A stretch of 64,000 nt of DNA from a virus. Lineage: Duplodnaviria > Heunggongvirae > Uroviricota > Caudoviricetes. Location: IMG/VR virus record IMGVR_UViG_3300027819_000007, positions 83,787 to 147,786 of that record. One strand, written 5' to 3'. The translations under genes and the position numbers were made by a program. Position 1 is the stretch's first letter. Each line of letters opens with the position of its first letter. Below are positions 3,409 to 29,678 of the stretch, one piece after another. A model generated the notes under the pieces. That model was not told the DNA's origin and made no database searches. It worked only from the letters and a program-made list of their open reading frames with translations.

Positions 3409-4860
3409 TCAACCCGTGACGATCAAATTATCTAAAAGGCTAAAAGCAGCAGCATGCCGCAGAGCAATATCGCAGGACAAAATTCCACGAACCCAAGTTT
3501 GGTCATTGGTAAAGGAGGTATCACCCAAAGTGGTAGCTGCAAACTCAATGGCTCCAAACATACCAATGAGCATATCGCTCCACATTCCACCCAGGATGTA
3601 GGTAAGAGTTGAAGAAGAACCCTTGGAACGAACCTGAGAAACCTGAGTGGACTTGGTCACCTTCTGTCCAGCAATGGTGGCTTCCACCTTGTCACCGGCT
3701 TCCCGGATCAGGTTGAACAGGAACGGTCCCATCTTATCGCCCTGTGCCACAGCATCGGTCCTAAGCTGGTAGGTACGATACAAGGTCTTGGGTCGCATGA
3801 TGAACCCCTCGAACTCGGCATTGGCCTCTTCCACCGAAGCGATCATACGGTAGAAGTCATTGGCTACCAGCTGGTCTCCGTCAACTCCAGTGGAGCTAGA
3901 AACCACCGTGTTAATACCCAGAGTGTTAAGAACACCACGAGGACGGGTATCCCCACCATTACCTTCCAGTCCGGCCAGGTCCAGTCCCAGAGCCAGGGAC
4001 TTGGTCATGTCGTCCCGCAGCAGGGCTTCTGCAGCAGGGGAGGCAAAACGAATGAGTTCGTTGGGAGCCTTGATGAGAACTGCCAGCTTCTTGGCCTGGA
4101 GGGTGACTTCACCCGTTCCCACCAACGATTCGGTAATAGCCGCATTCTCACCAACCCAATAGGTGTTAGAAGGAGTGGTCTGGCGAGGATACTTTAGTCG
4201 TCCCTGGGGAGGAAGGGGAACCGTCTTGGCTCCTGCATTGACCAAAGCTTCCTTGTTACGGAGCAGCTCGATCAATTCACCCATCTCTGGGGGTGCCACC
4301 AAGGCTCCACCCGTAATTTCGTTAATCCAGCTCAAAGCCTTGCTGCCGTATCCCATGCTCTGAAGCTGCTTGGTACGGATCCAATTCATTTCACCAGGAT
4401 CAACTCCTTCCATACCGGCCCGAACTGCCTGCCGCATTTCCGAACGGAAGTCACGGGGAACAATTCGATCCTGCATATAGGAAGTGCTCAAGGGAGCCAT
4501 GAAGCGATGGATACCTTCATGTCCGGTTCCACCATAGGTGTAACCAGCATCGCCCAACGACTTACAATAAACTCCGTGGAGTCTATTGTGGAAGTCAATT
4601 TCCATCTTGGCTTCGTCACGGGGAACAGCTCCGGTAAGGACACCCATCATTTTCATGAATGAGTAACCACGGGAACCCATGCTGTCTTCACCGTTGCGAA
4701 CATTGGGAACTCCCCACTGCTGTTGGTTAGGGTCGGGATGACCCGCCATACGGGTTTTCTTGAGAGTATCAACCAAGTCGTCAATACTCTTGGTCATAAC
4801 AGCAAGCCCTTCCGCATTCTTTTGCGTCTGGGCTGCCAGGTCGGACAATTCAATGCCCAT
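3409..4860 (-). CDS. major capsid protein, HK97 fold
   Basis: 483 aa. Has an N-terminal coiled-coil delta-like segment and HK97-family capsid signatures (Gly-rich core, 'EEANAEFEGFIMRP..'). Lies directly after the scaffold and protease genes, as in HK97-type head modules. Confidence 0.8.
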   Translation of the reverse strand: MGIELSDLAAQTQKNAEGLAVMTKSIDDLVDTLKKTRMAGHPDPNQQQWGVPNVRNGEDSMGSRGYSFMKMMGVLTGAVPRDEAKMEIDFHNRLHGVYCKSLGDAGYTYGGTGHEGIHRFMAPLSTSYMQDRIVPRDFRSEMRQAVRAGMEGVDPGEMNWIRTKQLQSMGYGSKALSWINEITGGALVAPPEMGELIELLRNKEALVNAGAKTVPLPPQGRLKYPRQTTPSNTYWVGENAAITESLVGTGEVTLQAKKLAVLIKAPNELIRFASPAAEALLRDDMTKSLALGLDLAGLEGNGGDTRPRGVLNTLGINTVVSSSTGVDGDQLVANDFYRMIASVEEANAEFEGFIMRPKTLYRTYQLRTDAVAQGDKMGPFLFNLIREAGDKVEATIAGQKVTKSTQVSQVRSKGSSSTLTYILGGMWSDMLIGMFGAIEFAATTLGDTSFTNDQTWVRGILSCDIALRHAAAFSLLDNLIVTG

Positions 4861-4965
4861 TAGTCAGTTGCCTCCGAAAAAGGATCTTACTTTCTAGTTC
4901 CAGGCAACAACATGGGATTGTGTTGCCAACTTCTCTGTTCAATCGGCCCCGTTTATTTGCACTGC

Positions 4966-6678
4966 TTAGGTGGATTTACCGTTGGTACTGTTGATGTGTT
5001 CCGTAAGGGAGGAGAGTTTCTTGGCTAGCTCGGACATGGCTTTACTTTGTTGTTCAGTCGTTTCCAGCAATTGCTTGACCTCTGCTTCGGGCTGAGACTT
5101 CTTGTCCTTCTTTTTCTTTTCCTCTTCCTTCTTCTTGTCACTTTCTTCCTTGTCAGTGGCTCCCTCAAACTTTGCCTTGTGCCAACCCTTGGCTCGTTCT
5201 CGGTGCTTATCACCGAAGTCCTTGGCCTGGGACAGTTCGTCCAGGAACTTGCTGAACTCCAGGCACTTAGCTCGGTCCTCATGCAAGTCAGTTGGCTTTT
5301 CGTCAATTGACTTACCGAACTCAGTAAGTCCCGCATAGGCAATATCAAACAAGGTCTTACTATAGTGGAATGCCTTAGCCCGCATGGGTTCGTCGGAGAA
5401 CGCCTTAGTAGCCACATCCCCCATGAAGTCCTTTACTTCCTCCAGGTGCTTGAGTTCTGGATTCTTCAAAGGACTTCGATGGGTAGTCTTATGGAAACTA
5501 CCTTGCTGTTCATTGGCCAAGTTGGTGTTAGTGGGTTGTCCATTCTGGGGAGCTACATTGCCATTCTGATTGGGATTCTGAGGCATTCCCGGAGCCGAGA
5601 AGACTTTCTTCTTACTCCCAACACACTTGCAGGGATCACTCTTACAATCCCCACACATAGACTTCTTACGTCCACCCCACTTAGGAGCTTGTCCCAACTT
5701 GGACCAGCCAGGCTTCTTCTTGAGGGAAGGGAACTTACCTCCCTTGAGAGCCTTGGCTGCTTTCCAACGGAGGTAGTCCTGATAAGCCTTGCTCTTGGCA
5801 AGTTGTGAAGGACGTCGGGGGAGGGACTTTTCACTTGCCTTCTTTTTGGCCTTGTCCTCGGCTACTTTACTCATCCCCTCAATGGCATCGTCTGCACTAG
5901 GCTCGTCCTCATCTCGTTCGTCGGTATCACTTTCACTTTCCAACTCATTGGGAGAGTCGGCATTGTCATCTTCAATCTTTTCTACTTCCTCCAGGTCTTC
6001 CTCTTCCAAGGCTCCTTCCAATCCAGGAAGGTCGGTATGGAACTTAATGAAGATCTCTTCTACTTCCTCCAGGAACTCTTCCAAGGTTTCCAGTTTCTTC
6101 TGGATGAGGGAGTCTACTTCCTCATTTTCCAACATACCCCGCATGTCATCGTACTCTTCCATCAGGATCAAACCATCCTGGTGAAGGCGACGAAGGACTT
6201 GTGCCGAGTACTTCTCCCCTCCTTCTTCGGGAGCAATGTCGTCCATCTCTCCTTCGTCGGAAAGTTCATCCATTTCTCCTTCCTCAAACTGACCATCGCC
6301 AGGAAGATCGTCCATACCTTCCATCCCCATGTCCCCTTCGGGTGGGAGATCGTCCATCTCTTCGTCTTCTACAGCCTTTCGACGCATACGGAGGTTTTTG
6401 ATCTTACTCATAGATTTTTTCCTTCTTTGGTTCCACTTTTCCCATACTTTTTTGGCTTCTTCTGCGGTTTTGTAAACTCCTTGAACAGGAGCTACTTGCT
6501 GTCCTGTAGTCTGCTCAACAATAGCAAATCCCCCATGAACGGGAGAAATTCTATAGTTGTTACCTTTCTTAACCTCTTCATCGGAAGATACTCTTTCTGC
6601 TACCCCTTCATATTTCCGATGTTTAGGATTGGGAAACTTTTTCTTTTTGAGGTACTTGTCGTAGGACTTTCCAGCCAT
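4966..6678 (-). CDS. scaffolding-like protein (highly charged, coiled-coil)
   Basis: 570 aa. Very acidic repeats ('EGEMDELSDEGEMDD') next to Lys-rich stretches and a 'CGDCKSDPCKC' cluster. Sits between protease and capsid genes. Carries a 'SKIKNLRMRRK' copy of the recurring basic motif. Confidence 0.5.
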   Translation of the reverse strand: MAGKSYDKYLKKKKFPNPKHRKYEGVAERVSSDEEVKKGNNYRISPVHGGFAIVEQTTGQQVAPVQGVYKTAEEAKKVWEKWNQRRKKSMSKIKNLRMRRKAVEDEEMDDLPPEGDMGMEGMDDLPGDGQFEEGEMDELSDEGEMDDIAPEEGGEKYSAQVLRRLHQDGLILMEEYDDMRGMLENEEVDSLIQKKLETLEEFLEEVEEIFIKFHTDLPGLEGALEEEDLEEVEKIEDDNADSPNELESESDTDERDEDEPSADDAIEGMSKVAEDKAKKKASEKSLPRRPSQLAKSKAYQDYLRWKAAKALKGGKFPSLKKKPGWSKLGQAPKWGGRKKSMCGDCKSDPCKCVGSKKKVFSAPGMPQNPNQNGNVAPQNGQPTNTNLANEQQGSFHKTTHRSPLKNPELKHLEEVKDFMGDVATKAFSDEPMRAKAFHYSKTLFDIAYAGLTEFGKSIDEKPTDLHEDRAKCLEFSKFLDELSQAKDFGDKHRERAKGWHKAKFEGATDKEESDKKKEEEKKKKDKKSQPEAEVKQLLETTEQQSKAMSELAKKLSSLTEHINSTNGKST

Positions 6679-6691
6679 GTTTTATCTTCCT

Positions 6692-9523
6692 TTATTGGTT
6701 CATTTGACGGTAAATATCTGCTGCCCTAGGTTTTGGAGATTGTGGCTGTGTTTTTGGAGGAGTCTTTTTTGATGGAAGTTTAATAGCTACATCAATCTTG
6801 ACGCCATAACGAGTTTGTGATGCAACTCTTCCTTGTTCATAATAGAAAGTGTATTTCGATGAGGTGATGACGATTTTATCATCTTCGGTGATTGTTTCAT
6901 CTCCCACCAATTTCTCTTTTACTTTCTCCTCAACAAAGGAATCAATGGCTGCTTTGTTTTTTGGTCCGTCAAATCCTACATAAACTGTAGCCTTGCCGTT
7001 AGATGGACCATTTAGAGAGAATCCATTTGACTCATCCGTACCAAAAGTTCTTTGAAACTTTCCTGCTTCTAGAGGAATAGCTGTCTTGGGAGATTCCCCA
7101 TTAGCAGATTGTCGAACGTTTCTGATTCCTATTTTGTCATGGTTTGGAATTTTCTGAACATCAGCGTCGTCTTTTGTTCGTCCAAAAGGGAGATTCTTCC
7201 TCCTCATCCTCAAACCATACTTACAGGCCAGCCTATCGGCGTGGGGATCGTGCCCTCGAAGTTTAACCTTGTGTCCACGATCAAACTTTCCAAGGTGGTG
7301 GAACTCCAAACCCATTGATTCTGCCTCTTTGCGAAAGGCATCAATGTCCTTAGCATGGGCAAAAACAATGGTAGTTCCTGGAGAACTCCTCTTGATCCGT
7401 CTCCGAAACCCCTTGGGATTGACTCGATACTTTTGACGGAGACTTTTTTGATGCAGATGTTTTGGACCACCTCTCCTTCCTCCTCTTACGGTAGCATCGT
7501 GGGAGTTTGGAGAATTTCCAGAAGTAGAAGGTTGTCTCTCAAATGTTTCGTTACTGAAAGCAAGTCCGGTAAGGAGATCATCGGCTGCCTCCATAGCTAC
7601 TTTTTTGTTACGGAGACCTCTCTTGGTGGTGACCCACATCTCCTGATCATCGTCCCACTTGACTACTCGCCAAGTTCCATCATTGTCAGGACATATTTGA
7701 ATTTCGTGATAAGGATTGTCACTAACGGCAACACAAGCGTTTGCTCGGAATTTTGGTTGTGGTTGGTTTGCTTTGGCGAAAGCCTTCTTCTTGAAAGGCT
7801 TTATATTTTCATGCTGGCCAAGTCCACAGAAGTCCTCAACCTTCTGTTTTTCTTTTACCACTTTTTTACCATGATGGACGTCACCACTGATGTTAGTGAG
7901 GAGGGGGACTTTTCTTTTCTTGGGAGCTTCTTCTGCCAACTCTACTTGGTTGTCACGGGACTGACCAAATTTCTTCATTCCCTTCTTATTCTGGGAATGA
8001 AACTTCACTAGGTCTAGTGCATTTTCAACCGAATCAACATTATTCCAATCATTGTCCCAGGAACCCTTGAGGAATAATTCTCCGGTTTTGATGTGTTTAG
8101 CAATCACATATCCTGGACCTTGTTTCACTACCTTCAAAGAAGATGGAACTTTGATTTCATCGTGAGAGGCAGTCCGTTGGTATGGTTGTTGTCCAGGATG
8201 TTTCTTGATGTGCTTGCGATCATGTTGTCGAGCATAGCACGAAGTACAGAGGTGTCCTTTAGGAGTCATTCCCATTTGACTTCGTGGCTTCCTCTTTTCA
8301 CAGGAGTAACAAACTGCATTAGGTTCTTTGCTGTTAGGATGAGATTGCCACTGTGCAGTAGATTCTTGCTCAACACCAGCCTTCTTATGGTACTTGAGAC
8401 TAAGTGATTTCTTGTGTTCCATTTCCTGCTCTTCTTCCTTCAACCAATTCAAATCCCCAACAATTTTCTTGTACCTCTTGTAGTAACGGAGACGAGAGGG
8501 TTTGATGTTCTTGAACTGCTTCCCCTTAACGATTTGTACATGGCCTGGTTTCATCTTAGGACCAGGGATCTTGGTCTTACTCAAATCACCATGAGGAATA
8601 GGGGTGGACTTCTTTCCTTCTTGCTCCTTCTTCTCTTCATCTTCCTTTTTCTTATCTCGCAGTTCATCGAACCTACGAGCCAACTCGTCCAGTAGTTGTT
8701 GAGTTTCTTGGGTAGTGGTTTCTGGTTTGGGACAAGCTTTCTGTTCTACCACATCACTGAATCCAACCACGGTCTTTGTCTCCGGAACATCATAAGCCGT
8801 CAAACTCTTTACCAAGTAAGGAGAAATCTTCTTTCCACAAATGGTAGGCATGGCCAACATTTTACGGACGGTGTCCTGGTTGGCTGGCATAACGACTGCA
8901 CTGGCTTCTAACATCAACGTAGAGTGAAGGTGCAATCCTTGAGGAGTGCCTCGCTCATAGTCGGGAGGAAGTTGAGTTGCATGAACGACTTGATAACCAA
9001 TACTTCCACTACGAATGAACTTCTTGGACCAGAGGTCGAAAGTCTGCTCGCAGAAAACTGCGTGGTCGTATTCCTGACCCTTGTCTACTTGGGTAAGTCC
9101 TCGTCCTTGGTAAATGAAAGCCTTGACCTTGGCTTCCTTGGAGACAGTGTCGATAGTTACCGTATACGCACTGGTTTTTGGGTCTTCGGCTAGTCCAATG
9201 GGAAGGGTAACTGCTTTACCGTGGTCAAACAAAATTACAGGATTTCGCTTATGTCTAGAGGTATCAATCCCCCCTACTTCTAATAAGTCCCCAACTCCAT
9301 CACGTCTATGTCCATCAGCAAAGGGAATAACAATGGACATCTCGGATTCGTTGACTTCCGGGTCTGCTTCTCCTACAACGTCGAGACCATACTGACCGTC
9401 CCCTGCCAACTTGTAGGCAAAGCGACTGCTGTCCAGGTTTTTATTCCTGGTGTTGAGAATATCGTAAGTTGAAATTCGAGAAGTGGATCGTAAATGAGAA
9501 GGATCTACTACAGCCACGAACAT
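6692..9523 (-). CDS. prohead protease domain fused to long basic C-terminal region (polyprotein-like)
   Basis: 943 aa. The N-terminal ~250 aa matches the HK97-family prohead protease pattern ('NPVILFDHGKAVTLPIG', 'LMLEASAVVMPANQD'). The remainder is Lys/Arg-rich and carries Cys clusters. It contains several copies of the 'KSL(S/R)LKY(H/R)KK'-type motif (near aa 341-381 and aa ~700) and a 'GLRMRRKNLP' copy. Confidence 0.6.
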   Translation of the reverse strand: MFVAVVDPSHLRSTSRISTYDILNTRNKNLDSSRFAYKLAGDGQYGLDVVGEADPEVNESEMSIVIPFADGHRRDGVGDLLEVGGIDTSRHKRNPVILFDHGKAVTLPIGLAEDPKTSAYTVTIDTVSKEAKVKAFIYQGRGLTQVDKGQEYDHAVFCEQTFDLWSKKFIRSGSIGYQVVHATQLPPDYERGTPQGLHLHSTLMLEASAVVMPANQDTVRKMLAMPTICGKKISPYLVKSLTAYDVPETKTVVGFSDVVEQKACPKPETTTQETQQLLDELARRFDELRDKKKEDEEKKEQEGKKSTPIPHGDLSKTKIPGPKMKPGHVQIVKGKQFKNIKPSRLRYYKRYKKIVGDLNWLKEEEQEMEHKKSLSLKYHKKAGVEQESTAQWQSHPNSKEPNAVCYSCEKRKPRSQMGMTPKGHLCTSCYARQHDRKHIKKHPGQQPYQRTASHDEIKVPSSLKVVKQGPGYVIAKHIKTGELFLKGSWDNDWNNVDSVENALDLVKFHSQNKKGMKKFGQSRDNQVELAEEAPKKRKVPLLTNISGDVHHGKKVVKEKQKVEDFCGLGQHENIKPFKKKAFAKANQPQPKFRANACVAVSDNPYHEIQICPDNDGTWRVVKWDDDQEMWVTTKRGLRNKKVAMEAADDLLTGLAFSNETFERQPSTSGNSPNSHDATVRGGRRGGPKHLHQKSLRQKYRVNPKGFRRRIKRSSPGTTIVFAHAKDIDAFRKEAESMGLEFHHLGKFDRGHKVKLRGHDPHADRLACKYGLRMRRKNLPFGRTKDDADVQKIPNHDKIGIRNVRQSANGESPKTAIPLEAGKFQRTFGTDESNGFSLNGPSNGKATVYVGFDGPKNKAAIDSFVEEKVKEKLVGDETITEDDKIVITSSKYTFYYEQGRVASQTRYGVKIDVAIKLPSKKTPPKTQPQSPKPRAADIYRQMNQ

Positions 9524-9862: not shown

Positions 9863-10135
9863 TCACTTCCATTCCTGGGCTTGCTTCTTCTCCCCTTCAA
9901 CATACTCCAACTTGGCGACCCTGATTTCCTCATCGGGCATTTCTTCCTTCAGTCGTTTCATCAAGGTCTTGCGGTAGATCCCCCACCAGTCACGGTCGGT
10001 TGGTTCAGAAGGTGTTTCCATTGCTTTCACATCCTGCTGCATTCCCGCTTCACGAATTTTCTCTACTTCTTTGAGAGCTTCTTCCTGCTCAGGAGAAATA
10101 TCAATGTCTCGTCCATCATACTGTGAGTAGTTCAC
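9863..10135 (-). CDS. hypothetical acidic small protein
   Basis: 90 aa, charged. Its start overlaps the stop of the 1071-aa ORF. Confidence 0.35.
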   Translation of the reverse strand: MNYSQYDGRDIDISPEQEEALKEVEKIREAGMQQDVKAMETPSEPTDRDWWGIYRKTLMKRLKEEMPDEEIRVAKLEYVEGEKKQAQEWK

Positions 10136-13100
10136 GATTTCTTTTTCACTTTCTTATAGAAATATTGGAGATATTCGTTAAATGCTTTCATACATTTGGA
10201 GTCTTCTCGCAGGTCAAAATACATGCGGTTGGTACTTCCATTCTTCCACCACCAATCTCTACCTTCCTGAGTTGCCATTACATCAAGAATGTCTTTAGCG
10301 TTTGGAAACTCTTTGCGTAAGTCTTTCTGAAGCGTTTCCGGTTTGATGTCGGAAATTCGACAGTTATATCCGAAACGTGGCCAAACCCAATAACCGATGT
10401 CTGGACGTTGCTTACCTTTATTATTAGCGGGGTTATTCCAGTCCCAATCAGGAGTTTCTCGCCGTGCCGCACTACAACGAATCCTTCGGAAATTCCTCTC
10501 CTGTGCAGCAAAAACTTGTGAGGAGAAAATGGGGAACCCAACACCACTTCCCATTGGAACGTGCGGTTTGAGATAGAAGGTGTTATTGTAAAGTTCCAGT
10601 TCCCCCTTCTCATTCTTGAAAATCTCTCGTTCCATTGTGAAGAGTGGGTTGTTAACGAAAATCGTAACGTGGGACTCGTTACTATCAGCAGGGGGGTAGT
10701 AATCAATAGTAACTTCGGAATCTGGATCTTCTGCTCCGGTGAGTGTAACCACTCCGGGTATATTCAGACCTAAATCCTTGATGGCTTGACGCACCAATTT
10801 ATGGTTCTTCTCTGATCCTCCAAAAGAGACTTGTGCCTCAGTACGTTCCCCATCTTCATCTATCTCTTCGGTTTCAAAAGTTTCTTGCGATGGATGTCTA
10901 CTAGGAGGTGAGGTCCTTTCCCCATGAGGAGGATTGATTTGCTGTTGTGTTTCTTGTTGCTGCTGTTGCTGAATAAGTTGTGTGGTGTCAACAATTTGCT
11001 GATGTTCTGCATCGAGAACTTCAGGAATGGAATTCCCGCGTTGAACCAAATCCTGAATTGTAGAGATTGTTTCTTCAGCGGTAAGAAAATGTCCTACTCC
11101 AATCTCACCGAAAATCTGATCATAGATTGCTTTCATATGATCCCATTCTTCATTTTCCGCCAAGGAGGACAACTCAGAAGAATCTCGTTGGAGAAGATTT
11201 CTCATATCCTCTACCATACTATCCAATGACTTACTCTTCCAGTTGATACCACTGCTTCTTCGTCCAGCATCGTTCTCAGCTTCTACTCGCTCCATGACAA
11301 AACGGTCTCCCACACCAAGGAGACACGTTTCACAAAGGTTCTCATTGCCCTTCTCACACACTACGTCATACTCATGGAGTCTGGCTCCACAACCAAAACA
11401 CACTCCTTCTTCTCTTGTGTATGTTTTGAAGAAGGGACTTGGTTTAACTCTTAAGTTCTTAATGGTCTTAGGTGATGTCTTCGTCAAATCAATGAAAGGA
11501 GTGAAAGGAACTACCAAACCCTTGCTGTTCTCCTCCGGGTACACATCTTCATTGGCAATACCACCTTCTACCTCCTGACTAGCTTCCTCTCCTTCTGGAG
11601 TAGCTTCCTCTTGTTGTGGTAATGGAGAAGCCCCTATACCAAGATAGTCATCCATTGCCTGATCGTCAGCTACTACCTTCAAGGCTTCTGCGGTTTCATC
11701 TTCTGGGGGCTGGGGCTGGTCCTTTACCAGTCGATCGGCAATTTGGAGTGCTTGATTTTCATCTTCGGTTTTGGAAAAGGCCATAGCTAAGGCAGAAAGA
11801 TACCACTCCGGATTCTTGGCAGAATTTAGTTTGTTGGCCAGGGTAGTAGCAAAGTCACCTTCTCCCTTTTGGTGGTAGGGGAGATCCTTGGCATCCCACT
11901 CTGGCTCTCCTTCCTCACCTTCTTCCTCAACAGCATCTCCCACTCCGGCCAGGAATTCTTCCGCCCGCATTTGCAACTCCGTAAATCGTTCTAACTCCTC
12001 TTCCTGAGGAATTCCATAGTCGGAAGGGGAGTTAACCGCATCCCATACTTCTTCGGAAAGCTCTGTATTCCCGGCTTCCATCAAGTCAGCAGCTAGTTGT
12101 TCAAGGTGTTCCCAATCGAAGTAAGGAGCATTTTCGTTGACATTCCTGCCAAATTGGTCCAAGGCTTTGATCCCTTCCGTATCATCTTCATCATCAAGAA
12201 GACTTTCCAACCACTTTATTTGTTCTTCGTAGGTTGGTACAGTGTCCATACCTTCCGGTAAAATAACTTGTCCATCACTATCCAAACTGACAAGACTCAG
12301 AGACAAACACTCTTCTAACAAATCATCCCTATAGCCCCAATCTCTATTAAGAGTGTTTCTTACATTGTAAGTTTTGGAATACCTCTCTACGGTGTTGTCA
12401 ATGGGATCACCTTCAATCTTAGCAATAAGGTGTTCCAACTCCTCAATCTCATTGCGGATTAGCCCCGCTACTTGATCACTATAGGTTCCTGGCCGACCCA
12501 TAGACTCTATGTTCTCTTCTAAAAGTTCTACACTTAGCATCAAACGTCTAGCAACACCATAGTCATCGGTACTTAGTCCTACTCTTCTAGCATCTTCCAA
12601 CAGCTCTCGGATATACTCAATGTCGAATATTTCTCCCTCTGCAATTTCATCATCAGGATTTCTCCTAACGTCATAAGCCTTGGAAAAATCTCCTGTTGAG
12701 TGATCAATGGGATCACCTTCTGCTTGAGCGATGAGTCTTTCTGCTTTGCCAATCACGCCCCTCTCAACATAATCCACTATATTTGAACCCATTACAGAAT
12801 TATCTGTTCCTGGGTGGTTATGAAAGTGGTTATACCAACTTCTTAGACTCACAATCTCATTGGAGTCTCCCAATCCAAGATTTTCAGCATCCCCTATCAA
12901 TTCATTCATATACTCTACGTCGAAGACAACTGATCCATCTGCATTTGTCCTATTGTAAGTCTTCACCCGTGGAGCAACTGGCTTCCATCGCTTAGTGTGG
13001 ATTTTGGAGGGATGTAGTGAACTTTGTTTTGGATTCATCCCTTGTGAGTAGCCACGCTGTCGTTGCATTTCCTGATTGACCACTTGTTCCAAATAAGTAG

Positions 13101-13347
13101 TGATTTGTGACAAGGTTTCTTCATCCAAACTTCCTGGTTGAAGTCGGAAGCAACGTAGTAAATCTTGTTCTATTTGTCCAGGAGAGAACGATCCTTGCTC
13201 GATAGAGTACAAAACACTTTCCACGAACTTGTCTGCATATTGTTCGTTGAGCATGGAATCATCGATGATTTGATGAACAGCTTGAGTGATATTGTTCTTC
13301 TGTTCGTTAGTAAGTTCAATGGGAGTGAAATTACTATTTTCCATCAC
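10132..13347 (-). CDS. large virion-associated protein (minor head/internal protein candidate)
   Basis: 1071 aa. Has an internal duplicated segment ('DVEYMNELIGDAENLGL' and 'IFDIEYIRELLEDARRVGL'), a poly-Q tract and a CxxC pair. Located between the giant ORF and the protease gene. Confidence 0.5.
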   Translation of the reverse strand: MMENSNFTPIELTNEQKNNITQAVHQIIDDSMLNEQYADKFVESVLYSIEQGSFSPGQIEQDLLRCFRLQPGSLDEETLSQITTYLEQVVNQEMQRQRGYSQGMNPKQSSLHPSKIHTKRWKPVAPRVKTYNRTNADGSVVFDVEYMNELIGDAENLGLGDSNEIVSLRSWYNHFHNHPGTDNSVMGSNIVDYVERGVIGKAERLIAQAEGDPIDHSTGDFSKAYDVRRNPDDEIAEGEIFDIEYIRELLEDARRVGLSTDDYGVARRLMLSVELLEENIESMGRPGTYSDQVAGLIRNEIEELEHLIAKIEGDPIDNTVERYSKTYNVRNTLNRDWGYRDDLLEECLSLSLVSLDSDGQVILPEGMDTVPTYEEQIKWLESLLDDEDDTEGIKALDQFGRNVNENAPYFDWEHLEQLAADLMEAGNTELSEEVWDAVNSPSDYGIPQEEELERFTELQMRAEEFLAGVGDAVEEEGEEGEPEWDAKDLPYHQKGEGDFATTLANKLNSAKNPEWYLSALAMAFSKTEDENQALQIADRLVKDQPQPPEDETAEALKVVADDQAMDDYLGIGASPLPQQEEATPEGEEASQEVEGGIANEDVYPEENSKGLVVPFTPFIDLTKTSPKTIKNLRVKPSPFFKTYTREEGVCFGCGARLHEYDVVCEKGNENLCETCLLGVGDRFVMERVEAENDAGRRSSGINWKSKSLDSMVEDMRNLLQRDSSELSSLAENEEWDHMKAIYDQIFGEIGVGHFLTAEETISTIQDLVQRGNSIPEVLDAEHQQIVDTTQLIQQQQQQETQQQINPPHGERTSPPSRHPSQETFETEEIDEDGERTEAQVSFGGSEKNHKLVRQAIKDLGLNIPGVVTLTGAEDPDSEVTIDYYPPADSNESHVTIFVNNPLFTMEREIFKNEKGELELYNNTFYLKPHVPMGSGVGFPIFSSQVFAAQERNFRRIRCSAARRETPDWDWNNPANNKGKQRPDIGYWVWPRFGYNCRISDIKPETLQKDLRKEFPNAKDILDVMATQEGRDWWWKNGSTNRMYFDLREDSKCMKAFNEYLQYFYKKVKKKS

Positions 13348-16300
13348 TGCACCTTCTTCAGTTTATCGAGGTTGAGGTATTTCCCTACGTCATCCGGAGG
13401 TATTTTCTTGGCGAGTTTGACCAACTCACTAGCGGACAGAGTTCCCCTACGATCTTCGGTATCGATCTTTTCCAATACCCTTCCAGTAAGTTGTTGGTCA
13501 ATTTCATCATGTTCCAGCATTTGCAACACTCTTGAAGTGGTGTTCTTAACCACGGAGTTATCCTTGTCCGTACCTTCCCCATTCATGATATGATGGATAG
13601 CTGCTTCATAGTGTTGTTTGTTGTCCAGGTGGAAATCCTCATCACTAATGATACCACGCATTGCCCTCCCCAAGAAGGATTCACCACTAGCCTTTTCCAT
13701 CTCAGCAATCTTCTTTAACCTTCCCTGAAGGGGTTGTTGAAGTCGGTCCATATAGTCCAGAGGTTTCTTAGGCTCCTTCTTCCTTCGTTCACGAGTAGGA
13801 ATGGGTCGAAGTTCCTCTTCCTGTTCCACTTCTAAGTTTTCTGGCTTCAAGGTTCCTTCCAGGTAGTTATCCATCTCAGAAGCTTTGAGGGTGCCATAAC
13901 CTGCTTCACTAAGGTTCCTCAGAATGGCTTCCTTGTGTTGCTGGCTAATGTTACCACTCTTCAACTCATTCAGGACATTGGCACGAGTAGCCTTCATGTA
14001 GGAGAGGTTAGTTCTCTTGGCGTTCTCCCTGTTACGGTTAATGTCCCTCAAAGCTTCCTTGTAACGCTCACTATGAGTGATGGAAGAGTAAGCCAACACT
14101 CCGTTGATAAGTCTATCGGTGAAGGAGATACCTGTACCTTCTTCGGCTAGTTGGATACGATCCATCCGTTGTTGGAGTTCTTTCATGGGAGCTAGTTTTT
14201 TCTTCTGTTCAAGATTTTCCAGAATAGCAATTACCAGCCCATGCTTCTTGAGTTTACTGGTTCCTTTGATTCCTAGCTTGAAAGCTATCTTGTCTAGTCC
14301 TGATTTAAGTAGACCACCCCTCTTCATTGAGGAGGTTTGTTGGATTTCCTCCATCAACTGGTCAAACTTCTGAACATCTCCCTGTGATTCGGCCTGTCTC
14401 ACCTTACGGGTAACGTCCTCATGGTTTACCTTTTGAGGCTTAGGCTTAGGCTCCTTCTTGGGTTTCTTGGGCTTAGAGGCTTCTTCCCGTGGAGGACACT
14501 TCACTCGTTTTCCATCGTCAGTGCAGTAACGATAACCACGTCGGTCCTTACGTTCCTTGAGTTCTTTGGTGACATGAAACAAACCACTTGCTCGCAAAAG
14601 TCTTTCGAGAGGAAATCCCATCTTGACTTGTGGTGGGGAAAGGAATTTGGTGAAGTCTTGTACTTCTTTGTCCATATCTTCTTTAGGCATAATCCACAGA
14701 TCAATCAACCCCTTCATAAAAGGCCAAATTCTCCCGTCTTTATTGGCTTCGTCATTGTCTCGATATTTCAACACTTCCCAACCACGAATCATGAACCAGT
14801 CTGCTGCCGCTTCTGGTATGATGAAATCAGGATCATTTTCAGGCTTGTTGAAGGAAATGTACATCGCACCTTTAATATCACCACTCCTACCATAATGTCG
14901 AACTGTTAGTCCAAACTGCTGTGCAAAACTACTTACATCATCTTGAAGGTTTTTCCTTCTCCACTGCAAAGTTCCACTCTTGACGTTGGGAGCTAGGAAA
15001 CGAAGTGGAAGGGGATGAGATTTATTTCCTCCTTGCAATTTCTCTTGACGCTCCTCAGCACTTTGAATCAAATCTTCCAATTCATCTTCGGGGCTTTGCC
15101 AACCAATACTAGTTCCTTGCAAAGATTGAATCCAACTGCTAGCATATCCCTCCGCATCAATACTTCTGTTTTCATGGTAGATGTCTCCAAAGAGTACATT
15201 GGCAGTTTCCAACAAATAATCATGCAGTTCTTCCCAGGCTTTTTCCTTAAACATCCCTCGTACTAAATCTCCATTGAATTGGAAGTGGGACTTCTTGTGG
15301 GAGGATAGAGATTTAGTGTCTTTGGGAAAGAACATTCGGATGCGACTGTTTTTGTGGTATTGGGTCATATGTCGCATGGGGGAATATCCACGCTCCTCAA
15401 ACCAATCCTCAATTACTTCTTTTGGAGCCATTGGAACGGGGTTTTGTTCTTGGCCTAAATATTCCAACTTTTCGGAATACTTACTAGGCCACGCTTCATA
15501 GTTAAGAACAAGCTCAATGTGACCAACATGTCTTCTCCAGTTGAAATCATAAAATCCAAATTCATTGACAAAATCCCAGGAGTGTCTTCCTAGATTTTTG
15601 TGGTGAACACCATCGAGAGGAGTAAATTTTTTTCTCTTCTTTCTGTTCAAAGAAAATTCTGCATCTCTTACAATAGCTCCTCCTGTATCATTATTGATCC
15701 AGGACATAGATTTGTACCTATTATCATTTGCCCATATTTCCAACAACCTTCTCTCATCCCACACGTCTGAGGTTCCTAGATAGGAGTTAATCTCATGAAG
15801 AGTAGGATGATACACAACCCCAACTTGAACATCCGGTGGGAACCCTTGATGAACCAATGCTTCCTCTACCTGGGCGGATGTTGGAATTGTAACTGAACCG
15901 ACCCTGCCTTGTAAAATTCCTACTTGGATTGGCATTTCCACTTCTGGTGCTGTCTCTCGTTTACCCCCCGAACCCCCTAACAATTGATATTTGATTGGAA
16001 AATGAACAGTTTGCTTACCTTCTTCAAAAGGGGATAAGAAAGCATACTCTTCTCTTCGCATTGCTCGTCGTAGTTTATCAATACCAGGATAGCCTGCTTC
16101 CTCGGCTGCATCGGTGATTATTTCAAAAGGAACTTGATCTGTAATCATGTTGAAAACAGTTTTTGCGGTTGGTTTTTGAATGGCCTTAGCATAGTATGCC
16201 TTACTGTTCTCTGCAATGAATCCTCTTTTCACACGAGGGAGAGTAGGAATGGATTTCCCTCCATAGCCATAATATTCCTCAGGGAGAATGGCATCATAAA

Positions 16301-18212
16301 CTGCAATATCTTTGTTTACCAATCTCCCGGTTCCTCCATATCTCCTACCAGGGGGAAGAAACTTCCTCTTATCATGAAAACCAGTTTTCATTACGTCATC
16401 GAATTTCCTCAAAACTCTTGCAAAATGATATTCATCTTCAGGAGACTTAACGGAGTTTTCAAATTCTTGTATCCAAGAGTCAGCAAATGTTTCGGGAGTT
16501 AGGTATTGATTATTTTGATAAAAACTACCCCAAGTCTTCGTAGCTAACTCCATCAAATAGTCTCGAAGTATTCCCCAATCCTCATCCTTTATCATGTCTT
16601 TCACAATATTGATAGAATAACCAATTGAATTCCCTTCCAAGTGCGAGTGGTATTCTATCTGGAAGTCCTTAACAGCTTCTCTAAGTTGTCGTTCTGCCTG
16701 ACGATGCCTTTCGTTCAAAAATCCCCATCGAGGGTCTTCTCTAATTTCCTCACCAAATCTTCCAACCTCACTATCAAATTGTGCCAACCCTTCCTTGTTA
16801 AAAGCATCGGCTAGGTCATTAGCTGCTTGAACTGCTTTGTCAACATCCTCTTCCCGATAGGCTTCGGAGATTGAGTTCTGAGTTTTGCCAGCAGCCACAA
16901 TTCCATCTACCGAAGTTAAGTAGTTGGAATAACTCCTAAGTGTATCTTGTACTTCCTTGTAAAGTCCCCCAATCAGAAGTTGGATGATGGAATGGTCCTC
17001 TCTCCCACTCATCCAACTGTCCAACGACCAACGGAAGGACTTTTGGTTGGAACCACCTGTCAAGCGTTTCCTTCCTAGGAAGGGAGATGCCTTGACATGG
17101 GGAATTTCCATTCCATGTTCTTCCCAATCATCCTCCTCATCCTGTTCCATTTCTCCGGGAGATAAGTCAGAGAACAAACCACTTTCAAAAGCATCCTGAG
17201 CACAATTTTCACACATCAACGTGCCAGTTTCATCCTGCATATCAATACGGTAAAGGGATTGACTTCCCGTGTGGGAGCAATGACTTTCTCCAGGATGAAC
17301 TGGACAGCCAGGATCGCTACATTCACAAGGTGAAGGAAGAGGAGGAGACTCATTTCCTGGCTTGGCTCCGAATTTGATGAAAGTTCCATCATCTAAAGTG
17401 AGAACGAATTCTGTGTTTTTAATTGAGTCCGTTCTAGTATATCCAATATCAGTCCATCCCCAACTTGACATTTCATCATCGCCTGGATAAATATAATCTG
17501 GTATATTTCCATTTTCACTCATCAATTTTTCTATATCGTCACTACTCATCGTCGGCGAGTTGATGTAGTAAATCTGAAGTTGTTCATGCTCTTGAAGGTA
17601 GTCCCAAGCTTCCTCTGCTTCCATATCCTCCCAACGATGGGGAAGGGCTTTTACATCATGAATTCCTCTTCTTTCACTGTGGGGGGTTCCTTGAGGGGCA
17701 TAGATATGAAAGAGAGCATAGATTTGGTCTGCAAGACGTTCCTGTTGATCAATCGACAACTCGTTATATCCATCACCAAACCAAATTTCTATAAGTGCTC
17801 GAATTGACTCGCGAGTTGCTTTCCACCCACCTGGATGACCTTGATATCCTGGTCCACTTGTGAAAAGGGCATTAACGAACATTCGTCGTTGAGGCTCACT
17901 TCTCCTATCCCTAGGCATCCCCGAAAATTCATGATGGATAAGAGTGGTCAACTCACGTTTCAAATCATCTTCCGTTAATGCTTTCTGATACACTCCTTCT
18001 TGCAACTCTTTGGCACACTCTTGCAACCTACTGAACTTAATCTTAGGTTCAATGTCCTTTTGGAACTCCTGACTAGACTGAATAATCTCGTCGAAGGAGA
18101 TGTTGGAAGGAGCCAACTCCTTTTCCAATCGTTCGGCTTGTTCCTTGATTTGGGACAAGGCTTCAAACTTCTCGGCAAAAACATCACTTGTGGCCATTAT
18201 GAACTTCCTCAA
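13344..18212 (-). CDS. giant protein (1622 aa), putative internal virion/ejection protein
   Basis: Uninterrupted 4.9-kb ORF with start/stop overlapping neighbours. Contains a Cys/His cluster ('CECSDPGCPVHPGESHCSH..CENCAQ') and a Lys/Pro-rich linker. No recognisable enzymatic motif. Confidence 0.55.
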   Translation of the reverse strand: MRKFIMATSDVFAEKFEALSQIKEQAERLEKELAPSNISFDEIIQSSQEFQKDIEPKIKFSRLQECAKELQEGVYQKALTEDDLKRELTTLIHHEFSGMPRDRRSEPQRRMFVNALFTSGPGYQGHPGGWKATRESIRALIEIWFGDGYNELSIDQQERLADQIYALFHIYAPQGTPHSERRGIHDVKALPHRWEDMEAEEAWDYLQEHEQLQIYYINSPTMSSDDIEKLMSENGNIPDYIYPGDDEMSSWGWTDIGYTRTDSIKNTEFVLTLDDGTFIKFGAKPGNESPPLPSPCECSDPGCPVHPGESHCSHTGSQSLYRIDMQDETGTLMCENCAQDAFESGLFSDLSPGEMEQDEEDDWEEHGMEIPHVKASPFLGRKRLTGGSNQKSFRWSLDSWMSGREDHSIIQLLIGGLYKEVQDTLRSYSNYLTSVDGIVAAGKTQNSISEAYREEDVDKAVQAANDLADAFNKEGLAQFDSEVGRFGEEIREDPRWGFLNERHRQAERQLREAVKDFQIEYHSHLEGNSIGYSINIVKDMIKDEDWGILRDYLMELATKTWGSFYQNNQYLTPETFADSWIQEFENSVKSPEDEYHFARVLRKFDDVMKTGFHDKRKFLPPGRRYGGTGRLVNKDIAVYDAILPEEYYGYGGKSIPTLPRVKRGFIAENSKAYYAKAIQKPTAKTVFNMITDQVPFEIITDAAEEAGYPGIDKLRRAMRREEYAFLSPFEEGKQTVHFPIKYQLLGGSGGKRETAPEVEMPIQVGILQGRVGSVTIPTSAQVEEALVHQGFPPDVQVGVVYHPTLHEINSYLGTSDVWDERRLLEIWANDNRYKSMSWINNDTGGAIVRDAEFSLNRKKRKKFTPLDGVHHKNLGRHSWDFVNEFGFYDFNWRRHVGHIELVLNYEAWPSKYSEKLEYLGQEQNPVPMAPKEVIEDWFEERGYSPMRHMTQYHKNSRIRMFFPKDTKSLSSHKKSHFQFNGDLVRGMFKEKAWEELHDYLLETANVLFGDIYHENRSIDAEGYASSWIQSLQGTSIGWQSPEDELEDLIQSAEERQEKLQGGNKSHPLPLRFLAPNVKSGTLQWRRKNLQDDVSSFAQQFGLTVRHYGRSGDIKGAMYISFNKPENDPDFIIPEAAADWFMIRGWEVLKYRDNDEANKDGRIWPFMKGLIDLWIMPKEDMDKEVQDFTKFLSPPQVKMGFPLERLLRASGLFHVTKELKERKDRRGYRYCTDDGKRVKCPPREEASKPKKPKKEPKPKPQKVNHEDVTRKVRQAESQGDVQKFDQLMEEIQQTSSMKRGGLLKSGLDKIAFKLGIKGTSKLKKHGLVIAILENLEQKKKLAPMKELQQRMDRIQLAEEGTGISFTDRLINGVLAYSSITHSERYKEALRDINRNRENAKRTNLSYMKATRANVLNELKSGNISQQHKEAILRNLSEAGYGTLKASEMDNYLEGTLKPENLEVEQEEELRPIPTRERRKKEPKKPLDYMDRLQQPLQGRLKKIAEMEKASGESFLGRAMRGIISDEDFHLDNKQHYEAAIHHIMNGEGTDKDNSVVKNTTSRVLQMLEHDEIDQQLTGRVLEKIDTEDRRGTLSASELVKLAKKIPPDDVGKYLNLDKLKKVQ

Positions 18213-20337: not shown

Positions 20338-20610
20338 TCACTTTTGATAACTTGTTTCATACACCACAACTCCGTCTTCTTGATATTGCTTTTCTAACAA
20401 ATCAAGATAAGTGAAATCATTACCTATGATATCATTCAAATAATGACAAACTCTACCACATCTAGTACTCCCCATGAAGTGAAGATAAGCAAATCTTTCA
20501 TAACCTCTTTCACACAAAAGATCATGCAAGGGAGGCAAGGCAGTTTCATCACCATCCTGGTATGCTTTGGCTAAAGCTTGAAGTGGAGTCATGGTGTTAT
20601 TCCTTGGCAA
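20338..20610 (-). CDS. hypothetical protein, family A (paralog of 23708..24019)
   Basis: 90 aa. 'MTPLQALAKAYQDGDETALPPLHDLL' aligns with 'MTPHQTLVMLAKALKEGDESARQPLYDLWL' in the paralog. Confidence 0.45.
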   Translation of the reverse strand: MPRNNTMTPLQALAKAYQDGDETALPPLHDLLCERGYERFAYLHFMGSTRCGRVCHYLNDIIGNDFTYLDLLEKQYQEDGVVVYETSYQK

Positions 20611-29582: not shown

Positions 29583-29608
29583 GTTGTTCTCCTAAAGGTT
29601 AGTACCAG

Positions 29609-29678
29609 TTGCAGACCCCGGAGTTGAACCGGGAAAGAGAAACTTATGAGGCTTCTCCAGGAACCGTCCAAGTCTGCG
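29609..29678 (-). tRNA. atypical tRNA-like gene, anticodon CAU (Met/Ile2-type) with C1:A72 mismatch and shortened D-arm
   Basis: Manual fold gives acceptor 5' cgcagac / 3' gtctgca, anticodon stem gaagc/gtttc, loop cucauaa, variable ucuuu, and T-arm cccgg-uucaacu-ccggg. The D-region is only 16 nt. Confidence 0.4.

What the first reader, a model, noticed from the sequence alone, without database searches (positions are those of the whole stretch)
6376..9523. Prohead protease fused into a 943-aa polyprotein-like ORF carrying multiple copies of the same basic motif; scaffold carries one too
The N-terminal ~250 aa of 6692..9523 looks like an HK97-family prohead protease. The remaining ~700 aa is Lys/Arg-rich. 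It contains 'IKPSRLRYYKRYKK' and 'HKKSLSLKYHKK' (nt ~8381-8470), 'HQKSLRQKYR' and 'YGLRMRRKNLP' (nt ~7300-7500). The adjacent scaffold-like gene has 'SKIKNLRMRRK' (nt ~6376-6408). Repeated copies of the accessory-gene motif inside a protease fusion suggest autoproteolytic processing of a polyprotein into several internal head proteins at these sites. This would be an unusual head-maturation layout for a HK97-type module.
Basis: partly seen in the sequence, partly recalled or inferred. Interest (0 to 1): 0.8.

Follow-up and report, generated by a model that had tools for sequence, protein, structure and literature searches.

The report
Phage protease polyprotein with address tag
A large uncultivated phage fuses its head-maturation protease to a string of small basic "cargo" domains, and marks these, plus several unrelated small proteins elsewhere in the genome, with the same short basic peptide, which most likely works as a load-into-the-capsid tag.

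Summary
The first ~250 aa of ORF 6692-9523 (-) fold like T4 gp21 and herpesvirus assemblin. His101 and Ser174 are invariant in relatives. The repeated basic motif, M = [IVL]-K-[SA]-[LIV]-R-x-K-Y-[RK], is genuine. It has two strong copies here, 227 copies in 109 of 120 relatives (0.14 expected), and five copies in unrelated small ORFs at 50-55 kb. The two 'LRMRRK' strings, including the scaffold one, are not this motif.

The ORF belongs to an uncultivated clade with no GenBank phage relative. Its head gene is one polyprotein: protease, variable basic cargo (RMF, KOW or DUF5661 in relatives), M plus a clade-specific 85-aa domain, then scaffold. Here the scaffold (4966-6678) is a separate gene with its own ribosome-binding site.

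M sits at the extreme N- or C-terminus of independently translated proteins. I therefore favour a portable capsid-targeting tag, like the T4 capsid targeting sequence, over a bare cleavage site. Cleavage at or next to M is not excluded. Nothing here tests function.

Verdict: a new variant of known kinds (protease-scaffold fusion; capsid targeting sequence).

The parts
6692..9523 (-). 943-aa ORF: protease, linker motifs, variable basic region, M+d85, C-terminal tail
   Evidence: identical protein in three independent assemblies
8744..9523 (-). Prohead serine protease domain (aa 1-260; well-modelled core aa ~44-245)
9221..9226 (-). Asp100-His101, invariant; candidate catalytic His
   Evidence: invariant columns in A2; the catalytic assignment is an inference
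8993..9007 (-). GSIGY with invariant Ser174; candidate catalytic Ser
   Evidence: invariant columns in A2; lies inside the Pfam S78 match aa 159-219
8534..8605 (-). Linker element A (TPIPHGDLSKTKIPGPKMKPGHVQ; family consensus VPVPxxDLSKTxIPPxKWKPGxGA)
   Evidence: found in 57 of 120 relatives, 22 of them followed by M within 0-9 aa; absent from other window ORFs
8465..8506 (-). Degenerate M copy (IKPSRLRYYKRYKK)
   Evidence: 12.1 bits with the window-trained matrix, below 7 bits with the relative-trained one; positional equivalence after element A
8411..8464 (-). Linker element B (IVGDLNWLKEEEQEMEHK)
   Evidence: found in 20 of 120 relatives, usually directly followed by M or by element A
8381..8410 (-). 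M copy 1 (KSLSLKYHKK)
   Evidence: 15.0 bits; 32.5 bits with the window-trained matrix
7460..8380 (-). Variable basic 'cargo' region (aa 382-688) with a CxxC...CxxC zinc-ribbon-like stretch at 8234-8311; no family assignment
   Evidence: no significant Pfam hit; no homology to relatives in this stretch; net charge +17
7424..7453 (-). M copy 2 (HQKSLRQKYR), the N-terminal element of d85
   Evidence: 19.3 bits; R and Y invariant in 94 aligned relatives; predicted helical with pLDDT 67-81
7184..7459 (-). M+d85: clade-specific basic ~85-aa beta-alpha-beta-beta-alpha domain (aa 689-780)
7187..7219 (-). 'YGLRMRRKNLP': the C-terminal edge of d85, not an M copy
   Evidence: family consensus here is FGR[RP]VKSL; no matrix score
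6695..7183 (-). C-terminal tail of the 943-aa ORF (aa 781-943), unassigned
6686..6692 (-). AAGGAAG ribosome-binding site for the scaffold gene, overlapping the TAA stop of the 943-aa ORF
   Evidence: sequence read directly
4966..6678 (-). 570-aa scaffold-like ORF, homologous to the C-terminal part of the fused polyproteins of relatives
   Evidence: blastp, e.g. P0067 aa 1032-1540 E=3e-30 and P0082 aa 379-808; 78 of 119 relatives are fused
6376..6408 (-). 'SKIKNLRMRRK': basic linker before the acidic block, not an M copy
5854..6372 (-). Acidic block of the scaffold (aa 103-275, net charge -59); the conserved helical core starts at 'EKYSAQVLRRLHQDG' (6172-6216)
4969..5478 (-). Conserved C-terminal scaffold domain (aa 401-570)
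3409..4860 (-). HK97-fold major capsid protein; carries no M
   Evidence: PF05065 1e-32; 68-70% identical to the capsid proteins of L001 and L003; no M
51215..51616 (-). 133-aa orphan ORF with M at its N-terminus (MNNIKSLRLKYRKK; 51575-51607)
   Evidence: 31.4 bits; no homologue other than itself
50388..51218 (-). 276-aa ORF with an internal M (VKSLRMKYRQK; 50886-50918)
   Evidence: 25.9 bits
53700..54074 (-). 124-aa ORF ending in M (IKSLRLKYHKK*; 53703-53735)
   Evidence: 29.7 bits
54079..54405 (-). 108-aa ORF ending in M (IKSLRIKYRRK*; 54082-54114)
   Evidence: 25.7 bits
54648..55388 (-). 246-aa ORF with an internal M (IKSLRRKYSMK; 54963-54995)
   Evidence: 22.3 bits as a non-seed hit; 10.7 bits
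60852..63596 (-). Portal protein, heading the structural gene run that contains the M-tagged small ORFs
   Evidence: phrog_12 9e-23

Best explanation
ORF 6692-9523 is the protease-plus-cargo part of a head-assembly polyprotein typical of a large uncultivated phage clade. The ancestral layout is: prohead serine protease, linker motifs, variable small basic domains, M plus an 85-aa basic domain (d85), acidic scaffold block, C-terminal scaffold domain, with the capsid gene directly downstream. In this genome the scaffold part is a separate gene with its own ribosome-binding site.

The repeated basic peptide M ([IVL]-K-[SA]-[LIV]-R-x-K-Y-[RK]) is a portable short linear motif. I propose it is a docking or address tag. 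It would bind a component of the assembling procapsid interior, with the acidic scaffold block, the capsid shell interior or the protease as candidate receptors. Any polypeptide carrying it would then be co-assembled into the prohead. That includes modules of the polyprotein and unlinked small proteins encoded next to the portal and virion genes.

The N-terminal protease would then cut the polyprotein in the linkers, at or beside M or in the neighbouring elements A and B. This would free basic internal proteins that stay with the DNA and may be injected.

Shown here: the protease fold, the family architecture, the reality, conservation and distribution of M, and the gene split. Inferred: binding, encapsidation, cleavage and injection.
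For: Protease:
- His101 and Ser174 are invariant.
- Relative P0119 passes the Pfam S78 cut-off.

Architecture:
- Only the first ~240 aa are conserved across at least 185 relatives of 538-1614 aa.
- 78 of 119 are fused to scaffold homology and 93 of 119 carry d85.
- The capsid gene follows directly.

M is a selected peptide:
- 227 copies in 109 of 120 relatives against 0.14 in shuffles, with invariant R and Y.
- Codons differ between the window copies.

M is portable:
- It hits five unrelated window ORFs at 10.7-31 bits (four at 26-31), with none expected at or above 14 bits and 0.07 at or above 10.
- It also occurs in non-polyprotein ORFs of related contigs L003, L007, L008, L013 and L015.

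Tag rather than bare cut site:
- M lies at the extreme N-terminus of independently translated proteins: window 51215-51616, and L036, where a relative's gene is split so that the d85-scaffold protein starts 'MYKDLSSIRLKYRK'.
- M lies at the extreme C-terminus of others: 53700-54074, 54079-54405, L008 and L015.

Cargo character:
- RMF, KOW and DUF5661 domains sit between M copies in relatives. In P0020 the RMF domain (aa 386-426) is bracketed by M at 370-385 and 432-447.

Context and precedent:
- The window's M-tagged ORFs lie in the run of genes after the portal and virion structural proteins.
Against: - No experiment or structure shows that M binds anything, and no receptor is identified.
- The capsid protein carries no complementary conserved feature that I could recognise.
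- Evidence that M is a helix is weak. AF2 predicts a helix at moderate confidence only. A hydrophobic-moment test was not decisive: the signal was stronger at 160 degrees than at 100 degrees.
- In the polyprotein a covalently attached module should not need its own tag unless it is first cut free.
- M always precedes d85 and may simply be part of that domain.
- The separate scaffold proteins (window; L005) have no M.
- It is not shown that the M-tagged small proteins are virion components.
- Two loci whose polyproteins lack M contain no M at all, but that sample is too small to show co-occurrence.
Confidence: 0.5

Rival explanations
1. M is the recognition and cleavage site of the N-terminal prohead protease. 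The polyprotein would be cut at each M into internal head proteins, and the accessory proteins carrying M would be further substrates.
For: - M lies in linkers between recognisable domains and brackets an RMF domain in P0020.
- There are typically 2-3 copies per polyprotein, reminiscent of the release and maturation sites of herpesvirus UL26 (my own knowledge).
- M marks the N-terminal boundary of d85 in 84 of 94 cases.
- A natural gene split falls immediately before M.
- Positions 3-10 of M contain no Pro and almost no Gly, while Pro and Gly are frequent in the flanks.
Against: - M at the extreme N- or C-terminus of separately translated proteins would release only 3-10 residues, so cleavage alone does not explain why it is kept there.
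- The conserved span of 9-12 residues is longer than the sites recorded for T4 gp21 (L/I-x-E) or the herpesvirus proteases (V/L-x-A|S) (my own knowledge).
- The capsid protein has no M.
- AF2 predicts M as a helix, not an extended strand, although at moderate confidence.
Confidence: 0.25
2. M and the surrounding Lys/Arg-rich region are nucleic-acid-binding peptides. The middle of the polyprotein would act as a set of DNA-condensing internal proteins, or as RNA- or ribosome-binding effectors. M would be a conserved nucleic-acid contact, not a protein-docking tag.
For: - Net charge is +51 over aa 300-943 and +16 over M+d85.
- Cargo in relatives includes RMF and KOW, which are families that bind RNA or the ribosome.
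- In T4, lysines of the internal proteins contact the packaged DNA (PMC3012670).
Against: - Invariant R and Y with fixed spacing across about 230 copies is more specific than generic charge neutralisation needs.
- Binding DNA would not by itself bring a protein into a prohead before DNA is packaged.
Confidence: 0.12
3. M has no independent function. It would be the N-terminal structural element of d85, and the other copies would be remnants spread by duplication and module shuffling within this clade.
For: - The best-conserved version of M is the one fused to d85.
- d85 and M are confined to the same clade.
Against: - Free-standing copies keep the same invariant residues in otherwise unrelated, fast-evolving proteins. 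One carrier is an orphan ORF.
- They use different codons.
- Decaying remnants would not score 26-31 bits.
Confidence: 0.08

Closest known systems
T4 capsid targeting sequence (CTS) of the internal proteins IPI, IPII and IPIII
   Same: A short conserved peptide is the only feature shared by otherwise diverse small proteins. It directs them into the scaffolding core of the prohead, and a gp21-type prohead protease then processes them (PMC3012670). The protease domain here has T4 gp21 as its best structural match.
   Different: There is no sequence similarity. The T4 CTS is N-terminal and is followed by an L/I-x-E cut site (my own knowledge). M is basic and occurs at N-termini, at C-termini and internally. 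M also occurs in several copies inside the protease polyprotein itself. Encapsidation is not shown here.
Protease-scaffold fusion proteins: P2 gpO (also lambda C/Nu3 and herpesvirus UL26/UL26.5)
   Same: An N-terminal protease domain and a C-terminal internal scaffold are made as one polypeptide, which cleaves itself and the capsid protein (P2 gpO: PMC7552001). Of 119 relatives, 78 have this layout, with the capsid gene next.
   Different: gpO is 284 aa with a short middle portion. Here 300-1000 aa of variable basic domains (RMF, KOW, DUF5661, Zn-ribbon-like), the clade-specific d85 domain and the linker motifs A, B and M are inserted between protease and scaffold. In the window the scaffold is a separate gene, not a nested one.
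HK97 gp4 / Pfam Peptidase_S78 prohead proteases
   Same: Position in the head module, the assemblin-like fold, and a weak Pfam match over the Ser region.
   Different: The window protein is below the Pfam cut-off (15.2 against 21 bits). No GenBank phage protein matches at E of 1e-5 or better, and no PDB sequence matches a family profile.
Propeptide-directed loading and extensive head proteolysis in phiKZ-like giant phages such as SPN3US
   Same: Many head-internal or ejection proteins are processed by one prohead protease (PMC7411985, PMC10052503, abstracts seen).
   Different: Those proteins are separate gene products. They are cut at S/A/G-x-E motifs (my own knowledge). No basic portable motif or protease-cargo fusion is described for them.
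Encapsulin cargo-loading peptides
   Same: A short terminal peptide on otherwise unrelated cargo proteins binds the interior of an HK97-fold shell (my own knowledge).
   Different: Encapsulins have no portal, protease or DNA. Their peptides are Gly/Leu-rich rather than basic. No similarity to M was tested or seen.

Membership tests
Prohead serine protease of the HK97 / T4 gp21 / herpesvirus assemblin fold (Pfam PF04586 Peptidase_S78) | Profile match above the curated cut-off | tested here: not met
   The window protein scores 15.2 bits against a cut-off of 21, E=0.024, over aa 159-219 only. Relative P0119 passes with 27.6 bits. NCBIfam gives no hit.
Prohead serine protease of the HK97 / T4 gp21 / herpesvirus assemblin fold (Pfam PF04586 Peptidase_S78) | Assemblin-like fold | tested here: met
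Prohead serine protease of the HK97 / T4 gp21 / herpesvirus assemblin fold (Pfam PF04586 Peptidase_S78) | Conserved catalytic His and Ser | tested here: inconclusive
   His101 (in D-H) and Ser174 (in GSIGY) are invariant in 38 aligned sequences.
Prohead serine protease of the HK97 / T4 gp21 / herpesvirus assemblin fold (Pfam PF04586 Peptidase_S78) | Encoded next to the scaffold and major capsid protein genes | tested here: met
   The gene order is 943-aa ORF, 570-aa scaffold, capsid protein PF05065. The same order holds in relatives.
Prohead serine protease of the HK97 / T4 gp21 / herpesvirus assemblin fold (Pfam PF04586 Peptidase_S78) | Proteolytic activity on head proteins | not testable with these tools
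   Needs expression and mass spectrometry.
Protease-scaffold fusion (P2 gpO type) | Protease and scaffold in one polypeptide | tested here: not met
   In the window the scaffold is a separate ORF in another frame with its own ribosome-binding site, and the same split appears in independent assemblies. The feature is met in 78 of 119 relatives.
Protease-scaffold fusion (P2 gpO type) | Autoproteolytic separation of the domains | not testable with these tools
   No virion or expression data exist for this uncultivated clade.
Capsid targeting sequence (T4 type) | A short conserved peptide shared by otherwise unrelated phage proteins | tested here: met
   M occurs in at least six unrelated window proteins and in non-polyprotein ORFs of five related contigs.
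Capsid targeting sequence (T4 type) | N-terminal position followed by a protease site, and similarity to the T4 consensus | tested here: not met
   M is found at N-termini, at C-termini and internally. Its sequence is basic and unrelated to the T4 CTS.
Capsid targeting sequence (T4 type) | Sufficient to direct a protein into the prohead | not testable with these tools
   Needs co-expression or encapsidation assays.
Herpesvirus-type release and maturation cleavage sites | Consensus (V/L)-x-A|S in the linkers of the protease-scaffold precursor | tested here: not met
   The conserved linker elements are M, A (VPVPxxDLSKTxIPPxKWKPGxGA) and B (GDLNWLKEEExExEHK). None resembles the herpesvirus consensus.

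The most novel reading that the evidence does not exclude
M is a general capsid-loading tag for a whole clade of large uncultivated HK97-type phages. Any protein carrying this 9-12-residue peptide at either end, or inside the protease-scaffold polyprotein, would be packed into the head and delivered to the host with the DNA. The cargo would include host-takeover factors such as ribosome modulation factor homologues. This would be a phage counterpart of encapsulin cargo loading, with the maturation protease itself serving as the delivery chassis.
Probability: 0.35. Interest if true: 0.85.

Novelty: new variant of a known kind. Interest (0 to 1): 0.65.

Why it matters
If M is a loading tag, it gives a simple sequence rule for predicting which proteins of these uncultivated phages travel inside the capsid and are injected. 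This is something that normally needs virion proteomics. It would show that HK97-type phages, not only T4-like and phiKZ-like ones, run a tag-based cargo system, and it would link phage heads mechanistically to encapsulins.

The cargo seen in relatives (RMF, KOW) suggests early manipulation of host translation by pre-made proteins. A 10-residue tag that works at either terminus would also be a practical tool for loading proteins into HK97-fold shells.

Even if M turns out to be only a cleavage signal, the family gives the first conserved and easily recognised processing motif for a clade with no cultured member.

Tried and rejected
1. DNA-level repeat. Rejected: the copies differ at synonymous positions.

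2. The 'LRMRRK' strings as copies of M. Rejected.

3. An M-like hit in 44657-45364 (13.4 bits). This protein is a sigma factor (phrog_1740). The hit lies in its C-terminal DNA-binding part, so I treat it as probably spurious.

4. A cleavage site 'K|SLG' in the capsid protein, by analogy with HK97. The 'CKSLGD' string is not conserved in the capsid protein of L001, so I dropped it.

6. Domains in the window's variable regions and scaffold. Nothing significant was found.

7. Homologues of the N-terminally tagged protein 51215-51616, to test whether the tag is conserved. It is an orphan.

8. Helix test by hydrophobic moment. Not decisive.

9. Co-occurrence test in loci whose polyprotein lacks M (L033, L034). 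No M was found in six frames, but two loci are too few.

10. My impression that the small tagged proteins at 53700-55731 have TIGR02996-like N-termini. The profile does not support it.

11. Nested internal start, as in lambda Nu3 or herpesvirus UL26.5. There is an in-frame ATG at aa 368 with AAGGAAG upstream, but relatives have no Met there.

12. Literature. No paper in the library holds both 'prohead protease' and 'ribosome modulation factor'. Nothing describing this family was found.

13. Host. The single hit among GTDB species genomes is an 85.7-kb contig binned as Candidatus Parcubacteria, probably misbinned.
Full report
**What is at the coordinates.** All genes in this part of the window are on the minus strand. 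In transcription order they are a 1622-aa ORF (13344-18212), a 1071-aa ORF (10132-13347) and two small ORFs. Then come the 943-aa ORF of the finding (6692-9523), a 570-aa ORF (4966-6678) and a 483-aa HK97-fold major capsid protein (3409-4860; PF05065, E=1e-32).

**The protease.**
- Sequence profiles alone are weak. Pfam Peptidase_S78 gives E=0.024 at 15.2 bits, below the 21-bit cut-off, and covers only aa 159-219.
- phrog_617, a protease-capsid fusion family, matches aa 60-303 at 3e-7.
- An AlphaFold2 model of aa 1-300, built on 38 family sequences, has pLDDT 79.6 and pTM 0.70.
- His101 (in D-H) and Ser174 (in GSIGY) are invariant in the family alignment. They are the obvious catalytic candidates; T4 gp21 uses H85 and S140 (PMC12991175).
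- One relative, P0119, passes the Pfam S78 cut-off.

**The family.**
- The 943-aa protein has no match in 50,697 GenBank phage records at E of 1e-5 or better.
- It has at least 185 relatives in metagenome assemblies, many on contigs of 70-185 kb.
- Only the first ~240 aa are conserved (45-66% identity). Total lengths run from 538 to 1614 aa.
- In related contigs the gene is followed directly by the capsid gene, with no separate scaffold gene (L001 and L003).
- The window's 570-aa ORF aligns to the C-terminal part of those long proteins, for example P0067 aa 1032-1540 at E=3e-30 and P0082 aa 379-808, to the end of the protein.
- Of 119 relatives, 78 carry this scaffold homology in the same polypeptide, 93 carry a conserved ~85-aa domain (d85; window aa 689-780), and 12 stop right after d85.

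The family layout is protease, linker and variable region, M+d85, acidic scaffold block, C-terminal scaffold domain.

- In the window the scaffold part is a separate gene in another frame. Its AAGGAAG ribosome-binding site overlaps the upstream stop codon.
- The same split is present in independent assemblies, so it is not an assembly error.
- A third arrangement exists in L036. There a 346-aa protease ORF stops, and the next ORF starts 'MYKDLSSIRLKYRK...' and continues through d85 and the scaffold.

**The motif.**
- A scoring matrix built from six window copies found a seventh copy that was not a seed, at 22 bits.
- Iterating on the 120 relatives gave 227 copies in 109 proteins, against 0.14 in shuffled sequences.
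- The consensus is G-K-S-[LI]-K-[SADE]-[LIV]-R-x-K-Y-[RK]-x-x-K-G. The R is present in 222 of 227 copies and the Y in 221 of 227.
- Positions 3-10 contain no Pro and almost no Gly, while Pro and Gly are frequent in the flanks.
- Applied back to all window ORFs, the relative-trained matrix gives these scores, with no hit at or above 14 bits in 100 shuffles:

| ORF | Position of M in the protein | Bits |
|---|---|---|
| 51215-51616 | N-terminus | 31.4 |
| 53700-54074 | C-terminus | 29.7 |
| 50388-51218 | internal | 25.9 |
| 54079-54405 | C-terminus | 25.7 |
| 943-aa ORF, copy at aa 691-700 | internal | 19.3 |
| 943-aa ORF, copy at aa 370-381 | internal | 15.0 |
| 54648-55388 | internal | 10.7 |

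- The copies differ at synonymous sites.

The 'accessory-gene motif' is therefore a real, selected peptide motif, here called M. Both 'LRMRRK' strings fail:
- They lack the Tyr and do not score.
- The one in the 943-aa ORF is the C-terminal edge of d85, where the family consensus is FGR[RP]VKSL.
- The scaffold one is not conserved in relatives.
- A shared hexamer between the two proteins arises in 3-4% of shuffles.

'IKPSRLRYYKRYKK' is best read as a decayed copy of M, judged by its position.

**More structure in the linker.** Two further conserved elements flank M in the polyproteins.
- Element A is VPVPxxDLSKTxIPPxKWKPGxGA. It occurs in 57 of 120 relatives and runs straight into M in 22 of them.
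- Element B is GDLNWLKEEExExEHK. It occurs in 20 of 120 relatives and is usually followed by M or by A.
- The window reads A (8534-8605), decayed M (8465-8506), B (8411-8464), M (8381-8410).
- A and B occur in no other window ORF. Only M is portable.

**d85.**
- It is strongly basic: net charge is +16 over M+d85.
- It is modelled confidently, with core pLDDT above 93, as a beta-alpha-beta-beta-alpha domain. M forms a preceding helix at moderate confidence.
- A profile search of 1.84 billion representative proteins finds only 152 members, nearly all inside long proteins and most of those listed already known as polyprotein relatives.

**Cargo.**
- In relatives the variable region holds recognisable small domains: ribosome modulation factor in P0006 (51 bits, above the cut-off), P0020, P0059 and P0066; DUF5661 in P0007 and P0036; KOW in P0059.
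- In P0020 the RMF domain (aa 386-426) is bracketed by M copies at 370-385 and 432-447.
- The window's own variable regions have no assignable family. They are basic and include a CxxC...CxxC stretch.

**M outside the polyprotein.**
- Small or large non-polyprotein ORFs with M occur in five related contigs.
- In L008 and L015 the carriers are homologous small proteins ending in M. In L003, L007 and L013 the copy is internal.
- In the window, the M-tagged ORFs lie in the gene run that starts with the portal (60852-63596; phrog_12, 9e-23) and contains virion structural proteins.

**Mechanism.** Two readings compete.

It fits the linker positions and the bracketing of cargo. It does not explain why M is kept at the extreme N- or C-terminus of independently translated proteins, where cutting releases only a few residues. 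It also does not explain why a natural gene split leaves M at the start of the d85-scaffold protein (L036).

A tag reading explains all the positions: every separately made or separately released module carries one M. It also has a precise precedent. T-even internal proteins are diverse and share only a capsid targeting sequence that loads them into the scaffolding core (PMC3012670).

I therefore favour M as a docking or address peptide, possibly coupled to cleavage at or next to it, at about 0.5. I put the pure cleavage-site reading at about 0.25.

Candidate receptors are the acidic scaffold block (net charge -59), the shell interior and the protease. None was tested. The hydrophobic-moment test did not settle whether M is helical.

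**Comparison and novelty.** Protease-scaffold fusions are established. In P2 gpO, aa 1-141 are the protease and aa 195-284 the scaffold, and the protein cleaves itself and the capsid protein (PMC7552001). Lambda C/Nu3 and herpesvirus UL26 are further examples (my own knowledge). The layout as such is therefore not unusual.

The new features are:
- the insertion of hundreds of residues of interchangeable basic domains between protease and scaffold;
- the clade-specific M+d85 unit;
- a portable motif shared with unlinked genes, in a clade with no cultured representative.

I class this as a new variant of known kinds.

**Limits.**
- All functional statements are inference.
- The scoring matrix included the window protein's own two copies among its 227 seeds.
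- Only 20-kb slices of related contigs could be scanned.

Noticed in passing
window 60852-63596 versus 3409-9523: The portal gene (phrog_12, 9e-23) lies about 50 kb upstream of the protease, scaffold and capsid genes. Between them are glycosyltransferase-like and methyltransferase genes, a sigma factor, tRNAs and two giant ORFs. This is an unusually split head module.
   Followed up: partly
window 22956-23711; also 20597-21304 and 21894-22553: 22956-23711 carries a TIGR02996 domain (66.8 bits against a cut-off of 29). From memory, this domain is typical of Gemmata and other Planctomycetota and of some Myxococcota, so it may hint at the host. The other two ORFs share a C-terminal '...CWVLDLLL(A/G)KE' with each other.
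   Followed up: partly
window 29608-31131: A cluster of five tRNA genes on the minus strand: Met, Leu(taa), Met, Glu(ttc) and Val(tac).
   Followed up: no
window 10132-13347 and 13344-18212: Two giant ORFs (1071 and 1622 aa) overlap by 4 nt immediately upstream of the head genes and have no family hits. Equivalent positions in relatives carry weak PI3/PI4-kinase, 2',5' RNA ligase and Zeta-toxin/AAA_33 hits (L001-L003). In L013 the equivalent 1056-aa protein carries an M copy.
   Followed up: partly
L008 1355-1684, L015 4311-4685, L013 6395-9565, L007 6982-9693: A second shared short motif, '(D/K)RxG(R/H)xxCF(R/V)xGxxxxC', occurs in the small proteins that end in M and in the giant proteins upstream of the polyprotein in related contigs. 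It was not found in the window.
   Followed up: partly
window 8420-8437 (aa 368 of the 943-aa ORF): An in-frame ATG preceded by AAGGAAG would give a product starting 'MEHKKSLSLKYHKK', that is, with M at its N-terminus. The Met is not conserved in relatives, so it is probably a by-product of encoding element B.
   Followed up: partly
window 7907-7924: 'PKKRKV' occurs inside the variable basic region. It resembles the SV40-type nuclear localisation core and is probably chance in a Lys-rich stretch.
   Followed up: no
window 55743-60614: A run of Gly/Ser-rich paralogous ORFs lies after the portal. They give virion-structural and tail-fibre-like PHROG hits (phrog_13518, phrog_10356).
   Followed up: no
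window 53700-55731: Four adjacent small ORFs share an N-terminal 'MAD(D/Q/E)xL...DY(L/V/I)(E/Q)E(N/K)Y' region. Three carry M. The ORF between them (54410-54655) ends in 'HHRKKKYKK', and 55393-55731 ends in 'MRRRRKQQAQG'.
   Followed up: partly
window 44657-45364; L033 615-1804: The window encodes a phage sigma-70/ECF-like factor. A related contig carries two sigma factors upstream of its head genes.
   Followed up: no
L001 13672-16349; L003 16219-17241: LAGLIDADG-like and HNH/NUMOD4 homing-endonuclease-like genes lie directly downstream of the capsid gene in relatives. They are absent at that position in the window.
   Followed up: no
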